64,000 bases of DNA. Source: an uncultured Verrucomicrobiae bacterium. Its GTDB lineage: Bacteria; Verrucomicrobiota; Verrucomicrobiia; Limisphaerales; UBA11358. Shown here in pieces: positions 2,934 through 24,987 of the stretch. Under the pieces are notes generated by a model. It made no database searches and had not been told where the DNA came from. It was given only the letters and a program-made list of their open reading frames with translations. Each line of letters begins with the position of its first letter. Position 1 is the first letter of the stretch. The position numbers and the translations under genes were made by a program. Location: contig CAWJHF010000017.1 in NCBI GenBank assembly GCA_963842445.1, positions 11,706 through 75,705 of the forward strand, read 5' to 3'.

Positions 2934-4064
2934 ATGAAGTTATTGTTTAAAATCGCTGTTTTACTGTGTGTGTTCACTGGCGCGGCCATGTCCCTGCGGG
3001 CACAGATGGCGGTCCCGCCCCCGATGCCCGCCTATCAGCCGCTTTCCGGCGCGCAGCTTGACCAGTTGCTGGGGCCCATTGCGCTTTATCCCGACCCGTT
3101 GATTGCCCAAATCCTGCCGGCATCCACATTCCCCACGCAAATCGTGCTGGCCGACCGTTATGTCAGCGGCGGCGGCGACCCCAACCAGATTGACCAGCAG
3201 CCGTGGGACGCCAGCGTCCAAGCCCTGGCCCGATACCCAAATGTTTTGAAATGGATGGATGATAACTTGAATTGGACGACCGAACTGGGACAGGCTTTTC
3301 TCAATCAACGGCAGGAGGTAATGGATTCCATTCAACGGCTGCGCATGTCGGCTTACAATCTCGGCAACCTGCAATCCACGCCGCAGGAACAGGTGATTAA
3401 TGATGGCGGCTACATTGAAATTGTTCCGGCTGACCCGCAGGTGATTTATGTGCCGGTTTATCAGCCGGATCAGGTTTATTATCAAAGCGGTTTTGGCATC
3501 TCCTTTGGCATTGGCTTTCCGATTGGCTTGTGGCTGGATTGCGATTTTGACTGGGGGCACCACAATATCATTGTTTGGGGTCACGATCATCCGCGTCCAC
3601 CCAATTGGTGGCATGAGCCTGCACGTCAGCGGGACACGAGGCACACAACGGTCTGGCGTCCTGAGAATCGCCCGCGCGCAGGCGAGGAGAATCGTGGCGA
3701 CCGGGGCTGGGGCCAACCTCAACCCGTAATTGCCACGGTAGGCCGGTCCATGTCCGATTCAGTGGCACCGCGACGGACACCAACCCCGGCAGCCCGGCCG
3801 GAAGCGCCGGCAACCCGGTCTGCGACGCCCGTCGCACGACCCGCGCCGGCTCCAGTTGCACATGCCGAACCCATCAGCCGGCCGGAATCAAACGGCGCGT
3901 TCATCGGCATTCAGAGTTCGCATGACACAAAAACCTACAGCAACCGTGGCCAACAGAGCATGCAGACGGTCACCCGTTCAGCACCGGTTTCACGGTCGGC
4001 GCCGGCGATGTCCTCCGGCGGCGGCGGGGGCGGCGGCCATAGTTCAGGTCAGCCAAGGCATTGA
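2934..4064 (+). CDS. DUF3300-family secreted protein
   Basis: Signal peptide followed by LLGPIALYPDPLIAQILPASTFP, the hallmark DUF3300 motif. The C-terminal tail is low-complexity and rich in Pro, Ala and Gly. Confidence 0.8.
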   Translation: MKLLFKIAVLLCVFTGAAMSLRAQMAVPPPMPAYQPLSGAQLDQLLGPIALYPDPLIAQILPASTFPTQIVLADRYVSGGGDPNQIDQQPWDASVQALARYPNVLKWMDDNLNWTTELGQAFLNQRQEVMDSIQRLRMSAYNLGNLQSTPQEQVINDGGYIEIVPADPQVIYVPVYQPDQVYYQSGFGISFGIGFPIGLWLDCDFDWGHHNIIVWGHDHPRPPNWWHEPARQRDTRHTTVWRPENRPRAGEENRGDRGWGQPQPVIATVGRSMSDSVAPRRTPTPAARPEAPATRSATPVARPAPAPVAHAEPISRPESNGAFIGIQSSHDTKTYSNRGQQSMQTVTRSAPVSRSAPAMSSGGGGGGGHSSGQPRH

Positions 4065-5315: not shown

Positions 5316-7241
5316 ATGGAAACGAACCGGCAGCCTGAGTCGGAAGAAGTCAAACTGCGCCAGCAGTTGGAGGAATTTCTTCGCTACGCCCGCGTGCTGG
5401 AGGAAGTCACGCGCGCGCCGGCCAATCTGCCGCGCGTCAAAGAGGCGTCGCCGGTCGCCGTGCCGCTGCATGAATCGTTCCTGCGCGGCTCCATTCTCAC
5501 CACGCTGTTTCGCAATCCAAAAACCAGCCGCACGGTGTCGTTCAAGCGCGAGGAGCTGGCCGAACTGGACGGCATGAAGAGCGATTACCTGCTGAATTAT
5601 TACCAGTCGCAATCGCTGTTCACGCCGGACGACGCCGCGCGTTTGCGCAACAGCATCGAGTCGCACTCGCGGCGGCTTCACCAATTGCTGCGCCACAGCG
5701 ACTGGCGCGCGCAGGTTTTCAGCTACGAAGTTGCCAAGGAGGAAGCCATCCTGCGCAGCCTGCTGCAACTGCGCCTGCTGATTGAATGCGCGCAAATCCT
5801 CACGCCGCCTCTGCAGACGGTCAAACGCATCGGCGACGAGGAATTTGATTTGATTGACGACCTGCACGGTTTGGTCCGCCTGTTGGCACTGGCGCTGTGG
5901 CAAAGGCTGGCCACCGACGGATCGGAATTGCAGGCTTACGGCGCGCTTTCCGTTTGCATCGCCGGGCTGGCCGCGAAAGCGGACGACGCGCTGGCGTTGT
6001 TGGAATCCGGTTACGCCGCCGCCAACGGCGACGAAGCCGCGTTTGCGAAATGGTTCGAAAAAGGCGGGCGCAAGGCGATGGAGCGCGTGGAAACCATGTT
6101 GCAGCCGGTGGAGAAGCACGGGCTGGACGAAATTTTCAGCCTGTTCACGCGCCACACGCTGGATTTGGGCTTGCAGCCGGTGACGATCGAATTTGTCCGG
6201 CAGAATTTGCAAACGCTCGTAACAACGCTCGCCAACATGGGCCGCGAAATGTCCGACGCCTGCCGACGCCGCTCCGCCATCATCTCCGCGCAGTTCACGG
6301 AGGTTTCGCGGCAATACGCCGTGGATTTCACCGCGCGCGCCGCCGACCCCGGTGTGAGCGAGGAAGACCTCAACGCCATTTTGAAGGAACTCGACGTGCT
6401 CGTCGGCCTTGAGCCAGTGAAGGCCGAGGTCCACCGCGCCGCGAATTTCGCGCGGATGCAGGTGATGCGCCGGCAACAGGGATTGCCCGTTGTGCAGGCG
6501 AGTTTGCACGGCGTCTTCTTCGGCAATCCCGGCACCGGCAAAACCACGGTCGCGCGGCTCATGGGCCGCATTTACAAATCGCTCGGCCTGCTCCGGCGCG
6601 GCCACGTCGTCGAATGCGACCGCGGCCGGCTCGTGGCCGAATACGTCGGGCAGACGGCGGTGCGCACCCACGCGGTGATTGATTCGGCGCTCGACGGCAT
6701 CCTGTTCATTGACGAGGCGTATTCGCTCGCCGGGCGGGGCGCGGAAGATTTCGGCAGCGAAGCCATCGAGACGCTGCTCAAGCGCATGGAAGACGACCGC
6801 GACCGGCTCATTGTCATCGTTGCCGGCTACAACGAACCGATGAAACAATTCATCGCGTCGAATCCCGGCCTTGAATCGCGCTTCACGAATTATCTCAATT
6901 TCCCCGATTACAAACCGGAGGAACTGCTGGAAATTTTCCATCGCATGGCCGCGCAAAGCGGGCTGGTGTGCGCGCCCGAAACGGAGAAAAAGGTGCTGTC
7001 CATCTGCGCGGACCTGCATGCCGGGCGCAACGAACAATTCGGCAACGCCCGCGAGATGCGGAACCTGTTCGAGTCCGCCGTGCGCAATCAAAGCACGCGG
7101 CTCGTCGCCAGCGGGCAATGCGACCGCGACGCCCTTACGACGCTGTTACCCGAGGATTTGCCCGCCGATTTTGAAACCGGAATGCCCGCTCCGCCGGAAA
7201 TCAAACCGGCTCCATCAAGGATTGCGCCGAAGCGAGGATGA
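5316..7241 (+). CDS. AAA+ ATPase of the CbbX/SpoVK/EccA type with a ~380-aa uncharacterised helical N-terminal region
   Basis: Walker A GNPGTGKTT, Walker B ILFIDEAY, and the CbbX-like stretch RLIVIVAGYNEPMKQFIASNPGLESRF. The start is uncertain (5256 or 5316). Confidence 0.8.
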   Translation: METNRQPESEEVKLRQQLEEFLRYARVLEEVTRAPANLPRVKEASPVAVPLHESFLRGSILTTLFRNPKTSRTVSFKREELAELDGMKSDYLLNYYQSQSLFTPDDAARLRNSIESHSRRLHQLLRHSDWRAQVFSYEVAKEEAILRSLLQLRLLIECAQILTPPLQTVKRIGDEEFDLIDDLHGLVRLLALALWQRLATDGSELQAYGALSVCIAGLAAKADDALALLESGYAAANGDEAAFAKWFEKGGRKAMERVETMLQPVEKHGLDEIFSLFTRHTLDLGLQPVTIEFVRQNLQTLVTTLANMGREMSDACRRRSAIISAQFTEVSRQYAVDFTARAADPGVSEEDLNAILKELDVLVGLEPVKAEVHRAANFARMQVMRRQQGLPVVQASLHGVFFGNPGTGKTTVARLMGRIYKSLGLLRRGHVVECDRGRLVAEYVGQTAVRTHAVIDSALDGILFIDEAYSLAGRGAEDFGSEAIETLLKRMEDDRDRLIVIVAGYNEPMKQFIASNPGLESRFTNYLNFPDYKPEELLEIFHRMAAQSGLVCAPETEKKVLSICADLHAGRNEQFGNAREMRNLFESAVRNQSTRLVASGQCDRDALTTLLPEDLPADFETGMPAPPEIKPAPSRIAPKRG

Positions 7242-20070: not shown

Positions 20071-21033
20071 TTAACTCAATTCCCGTTCCTCAAACAACGC
20101 CGTCCCGACGGCGAGCGCCGCGCCCGCGTAGGCGACCGCATAGGCAAATGCCTTGCCGACGTAAGTCCAGTGGAACGTGTTTTTGCCCATGCTCAAGGCG
20201 TCCGCGAGCCAGAAAAGCTGCCAGTTTGGTATCGCCGTGTAAAGCGCCGACGCCCACCATTCGCCGGCTTCGGCGCGCCGGCCAATGAAGTAATCCGACA
20301 TCAGCCCAATCAAAAAAAACGCCGAGCAGACCGCCAGAGTGGGAATCGTGTCCAGCCGCGTCGAACACGCCAGCGCCAGCGCCGCCAGAACCCATAACGC
20401 GAACAGAACCAGAATTCCCGCCGGCACCAGCCTCCAATCCACCTGCGCCCGCACGCCAAGGCTCTGCATTTGCCGGGTGAACTGAAAAATGACAAACGCT
20501 GCCAACGTCACCAGCACCAGCAACGCCAGCACCGCGTCGCTCACGAACGGCCGCCTCAGAAAAAAATTGCTGAAGCCCGCCAGCCCGTAGGCCAGCACCA
20601 CTGCGGCCCCAAAAACGCCAAGCGCGGGCAAATCAGTTTTGCCGTAGGCGTCGAATGACATCCAGCTCGCCAGCAGCACGCCGATGAGGTTCACATACGT
20701 CAGCACTGTCAACGCCGCCGCCAATCCGGCGTATTTCGCCAGCAAAAATTGCGCGCGCCCAACCGGCTTGGACAGCACTGCCAGCGCCGTGCCGGTGCGG
20801 ATTTCCCGCGCCAGCGACGCCGACGCGCTCAACACCGCGCCGAACAGCCCCGACAACAGCATCACCGCCAGCGCGCTGTTTTGGACCAGCTTCGGCTCGT
20901 CGCCGAATGCGAAGTAATACGGCACCGCCAGGAATATCTCAAAAAGCACCGACGCCGTCATCAGCAGCAAAAACACTGGCTGCCGGATCAACTCCATGAA
21001 GGCGTTCGCGGCTATGGTCAAAAACTGTCGCAT
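20071..21033 (-). CDS. ABC-2-type permease-like integral membrane protein
   Basis: Six or more hydrophobic segments, plus LAREIRTGTALAVLSKPVGRAQFLLAKY, which is typical of ABC-2/NosY-like permeases. ATG at 21033 is preferred over 21099. Confidence 0.65.
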   Translation of the reverse strand: MRQFLTIAANAFMELIRQPVFLLLMTASVLFEIFLAVPYYFAFGDEPKLVQNSALAVMLLSGLFGAVLSASASLAREIRTGTALAVLSKPVGRAQFLLAKYAGLAAALTVLTYVNLIGVLLASWMSFDAYGKTDLPALGVFGAAVVLAYGLAGFSNFFLRRPFVSDAVLALLVLVTLAAFVIFQFTRQMQSLGVRAQVDWRLVPAGILVLFALWVLAALALACSTRLDTIPTLAVCSAFFLIGLMSDYFIGRRAEAGEWWASALYTAIPNWQLFWLADALSMGKNTFHWTYVGKAFAYAVAYAGAALAVGTALFEERELS

Positions 21034-21167
21034 GTCGAATGTGCCGGACAGGTTACGAACTCGGCTGCAAATTGCCAGCAGTGAATCCGTCCAAAACACA
21101 GGTCATACTTGAAATTCCATGGAAATTGAGCCTGTGGCGGGCGATTGCGTTCAAACGAAATTGCCGT

Positions 21168-23711
21168 TCAGGCCATCACCCGCGCGATGGAATTCCACCA
21201 CACGTCGTGCAATTCAGTCATCGGTGCACTGAGTTCGCCGGCAGCGGTCCTAATGGCCAGCTTGTCGCCGCCGACTTTGCCGATTTGAATTGCCGGAACA
21301 CCCATCAATCTCGCGCGTTCGACCACTTTCACCGCGTCAAGCGGTCTGCACGTGATGACTACGCGGCTTTGCGTTTCGCCAAATAGCAACGCGTCGAGAC
21401 GCAACGCAGGACAGGCATCTTGCCCGCCTCCATTTTTTAAATCAGTTTGAGACAGGCTGGAAGCCTGTCCTACGGCCGTCAAATCTACCGTCGCGCCAAT
21501 CAGCCGTGGTGTCTCGCGCGCGACGAGCTGGCTGATGCAGCTTTCGGCCAGACACACCGCCAGGCCGCCTTCACTGCAATCGTGGGCGCTTTTCACCAGA
21601 CCACTTTGGATGAGTCCGAGCAGCGTTGTGTGCAATGTCTTTGCGGTTTCCAAATCACAGCGTGGCGGCGTGCCGGTTTTTTTGCCGTGAACGACTTGCA
21701 GATAAGCCGAACCGCCGAGACCGAGCAACGGATCGTTTGCATCCACCGCGTCACCGAGCAAAATGATCGCGTCGCCATCGTCCTTGAACCATTGCGTCGT
21801 GACGTGTTCCGGTTTTTCGATCAGGCCGACCACCACCACCGTTGGTGTCGGGTCAATCGGGCCGTTCGGGCTTTGATTGTAAAGTGAGCAATTGCCGCCG
21901 GTGACGGGCGCATTGAACGCCCGGCACGCGTCGGCCAGGCCGCGCACGGATTCCTTGATCTGCCAGAACAAATCCGGCTTGAGCGGGCTGGGCATATTGA
22001 GGTTGTCCGTCGTGCCGAGTGGCACCGCGCCGGAACAAGCCAGATTGCGGCAGGCCTCGGCCATCACGATCTTCGCGCCTTCGTAAGGATCGAGATAGAC
22101 GTAGGTCCCGTTGCCGTCCACCGACAATGCAATCAACTTTGTGGGAAAGGCATCCTGCCTGTCTCCATTTTCATTTTTAATTTGAGACAGGCTGGAAGCC
22201 TGTCCTACGTCGGGCAACGAATCTTCCTTGATACGCAGCACCGCCGCGTCGCTGCCGGGGCAGACGACCGAGCCGTCGCGAACCATGTGATCGTATTGGC
22301 GGTAAACCCAGTTCTTCGATGCAATCGTCGGCCACGCCAGCAATTTCAGCAGATCGGAGATGGGAGATTGGGAATCGGGAATTCCATCCAACCGGAACGC
22401 GCGGACCTCCTTCAAATACTCCGGTTCACGCGATTCGGGATGATATACCGGCGATTCGTCGGCGATTTTCTTCGCCGGTATGTCGGCGACAATTTTCCCA
22501 CCATGCCGCACGACCATGCGGCCGGTATCGGTCACGCTGCCGATTTCCGACCACGGCAAGTCCCACTTGTCGAAAATGCGTTTCACTTCCTCTTCGCGGC
22601 CTTTGTGGACGATGATAAGCATCCGCTCCTGCGATTCCGAGAGCATAATTTCGTAGCTGCTCATGTTCGGTGCGCGTTGCGGGACTTTGTCCAACTCAAT
22701 CTCGATGCCGGTGCCGGCACGCGCGGCGGTTTCGCAAGTCGAGCAGGTCAATCCTGCCGCGCCCATGTCCTGAATCCCCGCGACGGCGCCGGTGGCCAAC
22801 AGCTCAAGGCACGCTTCACACACGAGCTTTTCCATGAACGGATCGCCGACCTGCACCGCGCCACGCTGTTGTTCGGCGGATTCCTCCGTCAAATCCTGCG
22901 ACGCAAACGCCGCGCCCGCGAGGCCGTCGCGGCCAGTGGCGGGGCCGACATAAAACACCGGGTTGCCCACGCCTTTGGCCGCGCCGCGCGCGATTTGTTC
23001 GTGCCGCAGCACGCCGAGGCAGAAGGCGTTTACGAGCGGATTGCCTTCGTAGCTCTTGTCGAAATAGACCTCACCCGCAATGGTCGGGATGCCGAAGCAA
23101 TTGCCGTAGTGCGCAATGCCGGCCACGACACCGGCGAACAACCGGCGGTTGTTCAGAACTTCGGATCGGGGAGCACACGCGCCCTCGCGTGTTGTGGTCG
23201 GCGCCTCGCCGATCACTTCGGCCGGCGCGGTCTTCTGCTCGGCGGGGGCGCAGAGCGGTGCACGCGAGGCGCGTGCGCTCCCCATTTCAATTCCGTTCTC
23301 GGTAATCGGCCCAAAACGCAGGGAATTCACCGAGCAAATCGGCCGCGCGCCCATCGTGAAAATGTCACGCACGATGCCGCCCACGCCCGTGGCCGCGCCT
23401 TGGAACGGCTCGACCGCGCTCGGATGATTGTGCGATTCCATCTTGAACGCAATGGCCAGACCGTCGCCGATGTCAATGATGCCGGCGTTCTCCTCGCCTG
23501 CCCCGACGAGGATTTTTTTGGATTTGGTGGGGAACGTTTTCAGCAACGGACGCGTGTTTTTGTAGCTGCAATGCTCGCTCCACATCACCGAGAAGATGCC
23601 CAGCTCGGTATAACTCGGCTGGCGGCCGAGGAGACGCTGGATGTTGGCATATTCCTCCGGCGTGAGGTTGTGTTTGGCAACCAACTCTGGGGTGATGGCG
23701 GGTTCGGTCAT
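21168..23711 (-). CDS. purL: phosphoribosylformylglycinamidine synthase subunit PurL, with three extra in-frame segments
   Basis: [35 protein letters not shown], and other PurL hallmarks. The ORF is 847 aa, compared with the ~740 aa I recall for Bacillus PurL. Confidence 0.9.
21409..21473. repeat. palindromic element family A, copy 1 (inside purL)
   Basis: Core tttgagacaggctggaagcctgtcctacg at 21446-21474 is identical to 22181-22209. The hairpin is gacaggc-tggaa-gcctgtc. Confidence 0.9.
22149..22209. repeat. palindromic element family A, copy 2 (inside purL)
   Basis: Same 29-nt core. In addition, cctgcctgtctc (22154-22165) is the inverted partner (11 of 12) of gagacaggctgg (22184-22195), across an AT-rich loop. 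Confidence 0.9.
23168..23283. repeat. palindromic element family B (inside purL)
   Basis: Arm ggggagcacacgcgccctcgcgtg (23168-23191) pairs with inverted arm cacgcgaggcgcgtgcgctcccc (23261-23283), with one mismatch and one indel. The spacer is about 69 nt. Confidence 0.85.
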
Positions 23712-24268
23712 TTCAATTTCCCTCGCAATTTCTTCGCGGACAATGCGAGCGCGGTTTCATAGCCGCCCCCGAATGCAAGTCGCGTTATGTCCTTCAAATT
23801 GAATTTCATTTTACCACTCCACTTTGCACTGGGATTTAAATCGTAAATCACGAGTGTTTTCTCGGTGAATCCAGCGAGCGTTCCAATCCAGCAAGCGTCA
23901 TCCTCAACCAATTCCTTTTCGATAGTAACAAGTGAAAATTTTTTGCTGGCGGATTTAATGGCTTCTTCGAGTGACGAGATGGAAACGCCAGGATGAATTG
24001 GCTTTAGTCCGTTCATATTCGCCGCTTTGTTTTGCCAGCAGCCTTTCTTGTCGAAAACCCTTTGGTGCTTGACGTCCTGCTCACGAATCACGACGTAGCC
24101 ATTCAGGGTGAATGTGTTCCACTCAAGCAGATGCAGTAGTATCAAGGAATCGTTGAAATCCAGAACAAACCCAGCGATTCGCTCATTAATTCGCGGGCGG
24201 CGATCAAGCTCAATTAAGTATTTCCTTTCCTGACAGCGTCGAAGCAAAGCTTTGAACTTCGGGTGCAT
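23708..24268 (-). CDS. orphan hypothetical protein embedded between purQ and purL
   Basis: 186-aa ORF starting 8 nt after the purQ stop. Its stop overlaps the purL start. It is visibly AT-richer than its neighbours and carries no motif I recognise. Confidence 0.6.
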
Positions 24269-24276
24269 ATACGTGA

Positions 24277-24987
24277 TTATGCCGCTTTCGCCACAGTTTT
24301 CTTTTCCAGCGCGGTAAAGATGCTTTCAAAAATCCATTTGCCTTCGTCGCTGCCTAACACCGGTTCGCTGGCGCGTTCGGGATGCGGCATCAGGCCGGCC
24401 ACGTTGCGGCGTTCGCTGCAGATGCCAGCGATGTTCTGCACGGAACCGTTGGGATTCGCGGTGTCGGTCAGGTTCCCATTGGCATCGCAGTATTGCCACA
24501 GGATTTGGTTGCCCAGCTTGAGCCGGGCGAGCGTTTCTTCATCCGCGTAATAGCAGCCTTCGCCGTGGGCGATGGGAAGTTTCAGCCATTTGCCCGGCGG
24601 AATTTTGTTCGTGAACGGCGAATCCGGCGTGGCGGTTTTCAGGAAAATGTGTTCGCAGTGGAACTGCAAATCGCGGTTGCGGATGAGCGCGCCGGGCAGC
24701 AGGCCGGCCTCGGTAAGCACTTGAAAGCCGTTGCAGATGCCAAGCACCAGCCCGCCGTTGTCGGCGAATTGTTTCACGGCCTGCATCACCGGGCTGAACC
24801 GCGCGATGGCGCCGCAACGCAGATAATCGCCGTAGCTGAATCCGCCAGGCACGATGACGGCGTCGGCAACGCCGAGGGAATTTTCCTTGTGCCAGACGTA
24901 ACGCGCCGAATGGCCGAGCAGCCCGATGGCGTGGATGGCGTCCTGGTCGCAGTTGCTGGCGGGGAATTGTAAAACAGCGAAGTTCAT
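24277..24987 (-). CDS. purQ: phosphoribosylformylglycinamidine synthase subunit PurQ (glutaminase)
   Basis: VPGGFSYGDYLR and GICNGFQ (catalytic Cys), plus a MPHPER-type C-terminal motif. Confidence 0.9.
   Translation of the reverse strand: MNFAVLQFPASNCDQDAIHAIGLLGHSARYVWHKENSLGVADAVIVPGGFSYGDYLRCGAIARFSPVMQAVKQFADNGGLVLGICNGFQVLTEAGLLPGALIRNRDLQFHCEHIFLKTATPDSPFTNKIPPGKWLKLPIAHGEGCYYADEETLARLKLGNQILWQYCDANGNLTDTANPNGSVQNIAGICSERRNVAGLMPHPERASEPVLGSDEGKWIFESIFTALEKKTVAKAA

What the first reader, a model, noticed from the sequence alone, without database searches (positions are those of the whole stretch)
23168..23283. Third in-frame insertion in purL: a different element with 23-24-nt terminal inverted repeats
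ggggagcacacgcgccctcgcgtg (23168-23191) and cacgcgaggcgcgtgcgctcccc (23261-23283) are inverted repeats, with one mismatch and one indel, flanking about 69 nt. The segment is translated as ...[40 protein letters not shown].... It sits exactly where Bacillus PurL, as I recall it, runs [27 protein letters not shown] with no such stretch. One enzyme therefore carries insertions of two unrelated element families.
Basis: partly seen in the sequence, partly recalled or inferred. Interest (0 to 1): 0.7.

Follow-up and report, generated by a model that had tools for sequence, protein, structure and literature searches.

The report
REPIN-type palindromic element inside purL
A 116-bp hairpin-forming mobile repeat, of a family that elsewhere flanks a small tyrosine transposase gene in Verrucomicrobiota, sits in frame in a loop of the purine enzyme PurL; this kind of event is known, and the unusual part is that close relatives carry other repeats at the same site.

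Summary
Window 23168-23191 and 23261-23283 are inverted repeats bounding a 116-bp, 77% GC segment. It is translated in frame within purL (21168-23711, minus strand). It is an insertion: Thermus PurL (3VIU) is contiguous at this point, and some 85-95% identical relatives lack it.

It belongs to a repeat family found in 85 scanned loci, nearly all Verrucomicrobiota. Each end is a double hairpin: an invariant outer hairpin with a TCY-GGGGA head, then an inner hairpin whose stem varies but stays paired. In four genomes the same ends flank a gene that passes the NCBIfam model for REP-associated tyrosine transposase. There is no target-site duplication, and 31 of 34 short copies are intergenic.

The best reading is a REPIN/TIRtron-type non-autonomous element moved by a Y1 (HUH) transposase and tolerated in a permissive PurL loop. 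It is not a DDE-type MITE.

Relatives carry at least four different palindromic families at this codon position, and carriers do not cluster by PurL similarity. The site therefore turns over quickly.

Intragenic REPs are already published, including in Opitutus terrae FGAM synthase. I rate this a new member of a known kind, of moderate interest.

The parts
21168..23711 (-). purL (FGAM synthase subunit PurL), 847 aa, the host gene of the insertion
   Evidence: ORF listed. The 120 listed homologues are 79-100% identical, are named PurL where a name is given, and carry Pfam FGAR-AT_linker/AIRS/AIRS_C.
23168..23283 (.). Complete 116-bp REPIN-type element (77% GC, against 60% for purL). It encodes about residues 143-181 of PurL.
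   Evidence: The architecture is the same as in 31 complete 107-170-bp copies in other genomes.
23168..23191 (.). Outer arm 1: GGGGA head plus a self-complementary hairpin, (A)CACGCG-CCCT-CGCGTG(T)
   Evidence: It is identical to the family consensus GGGGAGCRCACGCGCC(C)TCGCGTG.
23194..23216 (.). Inner hairpin 1: GTGGTCGGCG-CCT-CGCCGATCAC (variable stem, conserved GGCG-CCT-CGCC apex)
   Evidence: pair I7. It is parsed as a family inner hairpin.
23237..23256 (.). Inner hairpin 2, degenerate: GCTCGGCG-GGGG-CGCAGAGC (mirror of the inner hairpin module)
   Evidence: Read directly. Partial pairing is seen (I3, I6) and in the fold.
23261..23283 (.). Outer arm 2, the mirror image of arm 1 (CACGCG-AGG-CGCGTG + CGCTCCCC)
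   Evidence: The HMM hit covers 23237-23285 on the minus strand.
23165..23167 (.). Position of the family's 3-nt head extension (consensus TCY). Here it reads ATC, a partial match; the mirror site 23284-23286 reads ATT, which does not match RGA.
   Evidence: Flank statistics over 124 arms: T 57% at -3, C 51% at -2, C/T 88% at -1. Flank complementarity drops to background beyond 3 nt.
22139..22210 (.). Context: a GTAG-headed REP doublet ('family A') in frame in purL, in hypervariable block aa 504-522
   Evidence: gtaggacaggcttccagcctgtc...gacaggcaggatgcctttcc, fold -35.1 kcal/mol. Variable block defined. The weak miRNA-model hits in Rfam are spurious.
21405..21474 (.). Context: second GTAG-headed REP doublet ('family A') in frame in purL, in hypervariable block aa 752-764
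   Evidence: fold -46.6 kcal/mol; it shares a 29-nt block with the other copy. Variable block defined.

Best explanation
The segment is a non-autonomous REPIN/TIRtron-type element. It consists of two inverted 'double-hairpin' ends around a short spacer. The family's long form has the same ends flanking a roughly 160-aa REP-associated tyrosine (Y1, HUH) transposase gene. By analogy with E. coli TnpA-REP and IS200/IS605 TnpA, the transposase would recognise the hairpins on single-stranded DNA, cut next to the conserved TCY-GGGGA head, and move or copy the unit without duplicating the target. One copy landed in, or was recombined into, the codons of a length-tolerant PurL loop between SLRFGPI and [18 protein letters not shown]. 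It sits in an orientation and frame without stop codons, so the enzyme carries about 40 extra Ala/Arg/Gly/Pro/Ser-rich residues. Selection on PurL acts only as a filter (frame kept, no stops). The DNA arms stay identical to the family consensus through element-level processes, not through protein-level selection. Shown here: the anatomy, family membership, association with a RAYT gene in other genomes, absence of target duplication, rarity of intragenic copies, and hypervariability of the site. Inferred: that the RAYT catalyses the movement, that hairpins are recognised on ssDNA, and that the peptide is neutral and surface-exposed.
For: Of these, 85 carry the full outer hairpin (121 arms in 652 kb) and, by record title, nearly all are Verrucomicrobiota. 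The 35 loci with only the 16-mer hold all the hits from other phyla except L107 (titled Proteobacteria), plus some Verrucomicrobiota loci. Thirty-one complete copies of 107-170 bp share the modular plan.

Transposase: in L014, L027, L030 and L063 the same arms, inverted and 577-626 bp apart, enclose an ORF. The L063 ORF matches NCBIfam NF047646 REP-associated tyrosine transposase at 82.2 bits (cut-off 80, E 3e-23). The L063 and L014 ORFs match Pfam Y1_Tnp (E 4e-9 and 2e-7). The best PDB match is TnpA-REP 4ER8, with the HUH (PDHVHML) and Tyr (YVCRNPW) motifs aligned. A RAYT unit and short copies co-occur in one genome: L014 and L097 lie on the same 4-Mb contig, and L063 and L122 come from the same MAG.

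Structure: in 86 distinct inner hairpins, five variable stem positions are 95-100% paired with 4-6 pair types each. With shuffled partners the figure is 39-69%.

No target-site duplication at any offset from 0 to 4 nt or length from 2 to 8 nt.

Insertion rather than ancestral loop: shown by the 3VIU alignment, by the element-free L003 and by the 41-110-aa length range of the segment.

DNA-level conservation: the arms are 49/49 nt identical between the window and L001/L002, while fourfold-degenerate sites of the same genes are only 60-63% identical.
Against: The window holds a single copy and no RAYT gene, so multi-copy status and a cognate transposase are not shown for this organism's own genome. 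The head is TCY-GGGGA, not the GTAG that defines classical REPs. All 16 carriers of this family in PurL share one orientation and frame. Junction sequences are also partly shared (window with L127 on the left, window with L002 on the right). That pattern fits one old insertion spread by recombination as well as it fits repeated transposition. The start codon of the RAYT ORFs is unresolved, because the open frame runs into the arms. Mobility was not observed. Surface exposure of the peptide is only inferred, because the AlphaFold model failed.
Confidence: 0.8

Rival explanations
1. It is a classical MITE: a deletion derivative of an insertion sequence with a DDE transposase, which recognises the terminal inverted repeats on double-stranded DNA and duplicates a target dinucleotide.
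For: The element is 116 bp long with 23-24-nt terminal inverted repeats, and the family is dispersed.
Against: The 39 elements show no target-site duplication at any offset or length. The long forms encode a Y1/HUH RAYT, not a DDE enzyme. Each 'TIR' is itself a hairpin and is followed by a covarying second hairpin, as expected for recognition on ssDNA.
Confidence: 0.03
2. It is a lineage-specific PurL loop kept for a protein function, or for an mRNA function such as a translational pause or a stabilising hairpin. Its palindromic nature would then be secondary or co-opted.
For: The gene is intact, and the insert keeps the same frame in 16 homologues. The mRNA hairpin is very stable. REPs are reported to act as RNA elements (PMC3733652).
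Against: The stretch is absent from, or replaced by unrelated palindromes in, relatives up to 95% identical. What is conserved is the DNA of the arms, and the interior peptide differs between carriers. No terminator-like or promoter-like site lies in the element. The same arms are intergenic in 31 of 34 copies elsewhere.
Confidence: 0.08
3. There was one ancient insertion, and it has since been exchanged between lineages as a 'loop cassette' by homologous recombination through the conserved purL flanks. On this view the turnover at the site is recombinational and not transpositional. The nature of the element is the same as in the best explanation; only the history differs.
For: All carriers share orientation, frame and partly the junction sequences. 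Carriers are not closer to each other than to non-carriers: mean identity is 0.895 against 0.892, and P0046 (carrier) is 95% identical to P0084 (no element). 'Filled' and 'empty' alleles also differ in the adjacent residues (RTEIL against ESEISNLKSEIA), as expected for a swapped cassette.
Against: The inner hairpin stems of the window copy differ from those of L001/L002 while the arms are identical. That is more easily explained by replacement with another family member. At least four unrelated palindromic families occupy the same site, so several independent arrivals are needed in any case.
Confidence: 0.35
4. It is an assembly artefact: a repeat collapsed or chimerically joined into purL in a metagenome-assembled genome.
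For: The source appears to be a metagenome assembly, and the repeat is common in such samples.
Against: An independent contig with 0 differences spans the left junction. Three other assemblies (L001, L002, L127) have the same family at the same codon position, and the reading frame is intact.
Confidence: 0.01

Closest known systems
REPINs and their RAYTs (REP doublets forming hairpins with REP-associated tyrosine transposases; Pseudomonas, Enterobacteria; PMC3116915, PMC3337134, PMC5581495)
   Same: Both have two inverted palindromic units around a spacer that fold into a long hairpin. Both have a short form without a gene and a long form in which the same units flank a single Y1/HUH transposase gene. 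Both lack target duplication and are mostly extragenic.
   Different: The head is TCY-GGGGA and not GTAG. Each end holds two hairpins (an invariant outer one and a covarying inner one) rather than one REP. The host phylum is Verrucomicrobiota. The RAYT group was not assigned. This copy is intragenic.
TIRtrons / TIRYTs (tyrosine transposase genes flanked by long TIRs, some 'double palindromic', some sharing a GGGGWSAS motif; Di Nocera et al. 2013, PMC3733652)
   Same: A RAYT-like gene is flanked by long inverted repeats that overlap the ORF ends. The repeats start with GGGG and are made of two self-complementary tracts. Moderately abundant solo, dimer or grouped copies occur.
   Different: The arm begins GGGGAGCR, which fits GGGGWS but not the following AS. 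The published examples named in the section I read are from Acidobacteria, Stenotrophomonas and others. I could not check whether this exact family is among them, because the figures are not held.
Intragenic REPs, including Opitutus terrae FGAM synthase Oter_3711 with two GTAG-17 dimers (Additional file 3 of PMC3733652)
   Same: REP dimers are translated in frame inside a verrucomicrobial FGAM synthase, encoding short Gly/Ala/Pro/Arg-rich stretches.
   Different: That case involves the large single-chain PurL (1438 aa), other positions and another REP family (GTAG-17), and the inserts are 16 aa long. Here the host is the small PurL subunit, with a 116-bp GGGG-headed element and site-specific turnover among relatives.
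Rickettsia palindromic elements (RPE; my own knowledge, Ogata et al. 2000; also mentioned in PMC3733652)
   Same: Both are palindromic repeats inserted in frame in housekeeping genes. Both add a peptide segment that the protein tolerates.
   Different: I know of no sequence relationship. No transposase is associated with RPEs. The host lineage differs.
Correia/NEMIS and other bacterial MITEs (my own knowledge)
   Same: Similar size (about 100-150 bp), TIRs of about 25 nt, and dispersed copies.
   Different: Those elements duplicate a target (TA for Correia) and are attributed to DDE-type transposition. Here there is no duplication, and the partner enzyme is a Y1 transposase.

Membership tests
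REP/REPIN-RAYT system | Repeat unit is a short imperfect palindrome able to form a hairpin | tested here: met
   The outer arm is GCRCACGCG-CC(C)T-CGCGTG. The inner hairpin is 95-100% paired across 86 distinct variants.
REP/REPIN-RAYT system | [quoted passage not shown] | tested here: met
   The window copy folds at -78.7 kcal/mol with z = -6.3. Thirty-one further complete doublets of 107-170 bp were found.
REP/REPIN-RAYT system | The same repeats flank a RAYT (Y1/HUH transposase) gene | tested here: met
   Met in four other genomes (L014, L027, L030, L063). The L063 ORF scores 82.2 bits on NF047646 (cut-off 80); the L063 and L014 ORFs match Pfam Y1_Tnp. Not testable for the window's own genome: the 64 kb holds no RAYT.
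REP/REPIN-RAYT system | Tens to hundreds of dispersed, mostly extragenic copies per genome | tested here: inconclusive
Thirty-one of 34 short copies are intergenic. Per-genome counts could not be obtained. The window holds one copy.
REP/REPIN-RAYT system | Conserved GTAG tetranucleotide at the 5' foot of the hairpin | tested here: not met
   The head is (T)(C)(Y)GGGGA. The window's other purL inserts do carry GTAG.
REP/REPIN-RAYT system | No target-site duplication (Y1/HUH chemistry) | tested here: met
   Direct repeats at the flanks do not exceed expectation at offsets 0-4 and k = 2-8; none of 5 nt or longer was found.
TIRtron/TIRYT (PMC3733652) | Tyrosine transposase gene flanked by long TIRs, in some cases double palindromic and overlapping the ORF ends | tested here: met
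   The arms plus inner hairpins (about 50 nt) lie at both ends of the 577-626-bp units, and the open frame runs into them. The definition is quoted.
TIRtron/TIRYT (PMC3733652) | TIR motif GGGGWSAS (in one subgroup) | tested here: inconclusive
   GGGGAGCR agrees at the first 6 of 8 positions only (direct reading). The published TIR sequences are in a figure that is not held.
DDE-type MITE | Target-site duplication flanking the TIRs | tested here: not met
DDE-type MITE | Parent insertion sequence with a DDE transposase between the same TIRs | tested here: not met
   Four of the five longer arm pairs inspected for ORFs encode a Y1 transposase. The fifth, a 2.1-kb pair in L020, encloses a nucleotidyltransferase-like ORF and no transposase.
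Rickettsia palindromic elements | Sequence membership in an RPE family | not tested
   No RPE reference sequences were at hand. Rfam gave no relevant match in 20500-24500. Only the in-frame behaviour is shared.

The most novel reading that the evidence does not exclude
The PurL loop between SLRFGPI and NNRRLF, and two further loops of the same enzyme, would be preferred landing or exchange sites for hairpin elements. At least four sequence-unrelated palindromic families occupy the identical codon position in relatives that are 85-95% identical. The content of the site changes faster than the protein diverges. This would mean that Y1-transposase-driven (or hairpin-directed recombinational) insertion can be targeted to a specific intragenic site of an essential gene. 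It would give a natural system in which REPIN gain, loss and replacement can be dated against a housekeeping-gene clock.
Probability: 0.2. Interest if true: 0.6.

Novelty: new member of a known kind. Interest (0 to 1): 0.4.

Why it matters
The finding shows that the long, odd PurL proteins of Limisphaerales (799-927 aa, against 725 aa for Thermus thermophilus PurL, 3VIU) are explained by mobile hairpin repeats translated in frame, not by new domains. It defines a Verrucomicrobiota-wide REPIN/TIRtron-like family with a clear two-hairpin end and a candidate transposase. That pair can be tested directly in vitro. The covarying inner hairpin next to an invariant outer one suggests which part the enzyme reads by sequence and which by shape. 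The same-site turnover in an essential gene offers a convenient marker for REPIN dynamics. It is also a caution for annotation and for phylogenies built on purL. The general phenomenon, REPs inside genes (including a verrucomicrobial FGAM synthase), is already published.

Tried and rejected
- **Rfam** (evalue mode, 20500-24500): only weak miRNA-model hits on the family A hairpins and nothing on this element. I rejected these as spurious.
- **Other copies in the window:** searched with up to 3 mismatches, fuzzy regex, six-frame peptide motifs and a profile HMM. None was found.
- **AlphaFold2** of the 847-aa PurL with 47 close homologues: mean pLDDT 35.5. The model is unusable, so no claim about surface exposure rests on it and no fold search was run.
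- **MAFFT alignment of half-elements** (A1) put the 3' side of the inner stem out of register because loop length varies. I therefore counted covariation on loop-anchored hairpins with my own script and did not use the count of structure pairs.
- **Intrinsic terminator or promoter** in the element: none.
- **NJ tree of 120 PurLs**: poorly resolved and star-like, so it was not used as proof of multiple insertions. I used nearest-neighbour and mean-identity comparisons instead.
- **The 2.1-kb arm pair in L020:** contains no transposase.
- **RAYT group** (Bertels 2017 scheme): could not be assigned from the text alone.
Full report
**1. The observation**

On the + strand, 23168-23191 (ggggagcacacgcgccctcgcgtg) and 23261-23283 (cacgcgaggcgcgtgcgctcccc) are reverse complements with one mismatch and one 1-nt indel, 69 nt apart. 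The repeat finder lists the outer 16 nt as 94% complementary. The mRNA-sense strand folds at -78.7 kcal/mol; none of 200 dinucleotide shuffles does as well (z = -6.3).

The stretch lies in an 847-aa ORF on the minus strand, 21168-23711. Its 120 listed homologues (79-100% identical) are PurL of Verrucomicrobiota/Limisphaerales. It is read as [41 protein letters not shown]. It is 77% GC, against 60% for purL.

It is the only copy in the window. An independent Logan contig with no differences spans the left junction. Other contigs match the arms only and diverge exactly at 23166/7 and 23283.

**2. It is an insertion**

Thermus thermophilus PurL (PDB 3VIU) aligns up to ...SLRFGPPEE (residue 131) and resumes at ARSRYLLKGVVSGIAFYGN (residue 132). 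About 47 residues of the window protein have no counterpart.

Among the 120 homologues, the segment between NSLRFGPI and [18 protein letters not shown] ranges from 41 to 110 residues. It is one of three hypervariable blocks: aa 141-181, 504-522 and 752-764. The relative L003 has no element there.

**3. The family**

The relatives L001, L002 and L127 carry the same kind of element at the same place.

- Eighty-five loci hold the full outer hairpin: 121 arms in 652 kb.
- By record title these are Verrucomicrobiota of several orders (Chthoniobacterales, Limisphaerales, Akkermansiaceae, Terrimicrobiaceae, Udaeobacter, Luteolibacter), one Kiritimatiellia, one 'PVC group' MAG and one MAG titled Proteobacteria (L107).
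- The 35 loci with the bare 16-mer include all hits from other phyla except L107, such as Streptomyces and Pseudomonas, along with a minority of Verrucomicrobiota loci.

Thirty-one complete copies of 107-170 bp share one plan:
- a head TCY-GGGGA;
- an outer hairpin GCRCACGCG-CC(C)T-CGCGTG, invariant in sequence;
- a 2-nt linker;
- an inner hairpin with the conserved apex GGCG-CCYT-CGCC and a stem that differs from copy to copy;
- a variable centre, followed by the mirror image of the above.

In 86 distinct inner hairpins, the five variable stem positions are 95-100% paired with 4-6 different pair types each. With partners shuffled the figure is 39-69%. The window copy has all modules; its second inner hairpin is degenerate.

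**4. The partner gene**

In four genomes (L014, L027, L030, L063) the same double-hairpin ends, inverted and 577-626 bp apart, enclose one ORF.
- The L063 ORF passes NCBIfam NF047646 'REP-associated tyrosine transposase' (82.2 bits, cut-off 80, E 3e-23).
- The L063 and L014 ORFs match Pfam Y1_Tnp.
- The best solved relative is E. coli TnpA-REP, 4ER8. The match is weak (E 0.07), but the HUH (PDHVHML) and Tyr (YVCRNPW) motifs align.

RAYT units and short copies occur in the same genome: L014 and L097 on one 4-Mb contig, and L063 and L122 in one MAG. The short element is therefore the gene-less form of a RAYT unit. This is the REPIN/RAYT relationship (PMC3116915, PMC3337134). It also fits the 'TIRtron/TIRYT' variant with long, double-palindromic TIRs starting with GGGG (PMC3733652).

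**5. Discriminating tests**

The 39 elements have no target-site duplication at any offset (0-4 nt) or length (2-8 nt). The conserved TCC...GGA or TCT...AGA next to the arms is a 3-nt extension of the inverted repeat, present in about 60% of copies. Beyond it, complementarity falls to background. This fits Y1/HUH transposition and argues against a DDE-type MITE.

Thirty-one of 34 short copies are intergenic, often just upstream of a gene. Only the purL copies are internal to a gene. Elements are open in 4-5 of 6 frames as a rule, and their lengths show no bias towards multiples of three. An in-frame survivor is therefore a matter of filtering. The element holds no terminator-like or promoter-like site.

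**6. The site**

At the same codon position, relatives carry other palindromes:
- L124: gtagccgccgacgtcagtcggc...gccgactcacgtcggctgctac
- L125: cacctcaccccgcccctctccctc...gagggagagggccggggtgagggcg
- L126: ggtagggcgggctgtcccc...ggggacaccgcgccctacc

All fold strongly, at -42 to -102 kcal/mol.

Sorted by loop content, the 120 homologues fall into this family (16), four other motif groups (33, 23, 17 and 3; palindromes were confirmed at DNA level for three of them), unclassified 'other' (14) and 'empty' (14). Carriers of this family are no closer to one another than to the rest (0.895 against 0.892 identity on conserved columns). A carrier (P0046) is 95% identical to an empty allele (P0084).

The arms are 49/49 nt identical between the window and L001/L002. 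Fourfold-degenerate sites of the same genes are only 60-63% identical, and the inner stems differ.

All carriers share orientation, frame and partly the junctions. I cannot decide between repeated arrival or replacement and one insertion spread by recombination of a loop cassette. Either way, the site turns over faster than the protein diverges.

**7. Comparison with what is known**

Intragenic REPs are published. Di Nocera et al. list them in several species. Their Additional file 3 includes Opitutus terrae FGAM synthase Oter_3711 with two GTAG-17 dimers. Rickettsia palindromic elements are the classical in-frame case (my own knowledge; mentioned).

The window's other two purL inserts are GTAG-headed REP doublets. 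This element differs from classical REPs in three ways: the GGGGA head, the two-hairpin ends, and the host phylum. It fits the TIRtron description except for the last two letters of the GGGGWSAS motif.

I file it as a new member of a known kind.

**8. Limits**

- No RAYT and no second copy lie within the 64 kb, and the organism's full genome was not available.
- Mobility, ssDNA recognition and the neutrality and exposure of the peptide are inferred.
- The AlphaFold model failed (pLDDT 35.5).
- The NJ tree is poorly resolved.
- The RAYT start codon is unresolved.

Noticed in passing
window 21405-21474 and 22139-22210: The two other in-frame purL inserts ('family A') are GTAG-headed REP doublets (gtaggacaggcttccagcctgtc ... 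gacaggc..gcctgtcc) sharing a 29-nt block. They coincide with the other two hypervariable PurL blocks (aa 752-764 and 504-522). Rfam's weak miRNA-model hits there are artefacts of the hairpins.
   Followed up: partly
window 23708-24268 (minus strand): A 186-aa ORF lies between purQ and purL and has no Pfam or NCBIfam match. In relatives the same purQ-purL gap holds different cargo: HigB toxin plus a small ORF in L125, a D12 methyltransferase plus an unknown ORF in L002, a run of SGL, DUF362, WD40 and HicB-like genes in L001, and nothing in L003 and L126. The gap looks like a second variable spot of the pur locus.
   Followed up: partly
L001 418-894 (minus strand) with flanks 395-440 and 905-940: A second, different RAYT-like gene (NF047646 67.7 bits, below the cut-off of 80) lies 9 kb upstream of purL in a relative. 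It is flanked by another hairpin family (gggacggcgtgccgccgtccc / gggacggcgacacgccgtccc). These genomes therefore host several REP-RAYT pairs.
   Followed up: partly
L020 5511-7617: Two arms of this family in inverted orientation, nearly identical over the first 66 nt, lie 2.1 kb apart. They enclose a nucleotidyltransferase-like ORF (Pfam Polbeta/NTP_transf_2) and a 148-aa ORF without matches, and no transposase. This may be a cargo-carrying composite.
   Followed up: partly
L127 about 3420-3530 (purL of P0073): The left arm has changed on both sides of its own hairpin (gcagccg-cct-cggctgc in place of gcacgcg-cct-cgcgtgc). Local pairing is kept while the long-range match to the right arm is lost. 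This hints that the local hairpins, and not the long stem, are what is maintained. It is a single case.
   Followed up: no
L003 about 6490-6540, and many homologues: 'Empty' alleles still hold short tandem motifs (ESEISNLKSEIANN, EIANRKSQIANNK; DNA gaaatc[tg]caaat repeats) just before NNRRLF. Even the shortest versions of this loop are repeat-derived.
   Followed up: no
window 23142-23311 against its flanks, runs X19 and X13: In soil and peat metagenomes and in a metatranscriptome, contig depth at 90% likeness is in the hundreds over conserved purL but drops to about 2-30 over the loop. This reflects many related strains with different loop content.
   Followed up: no
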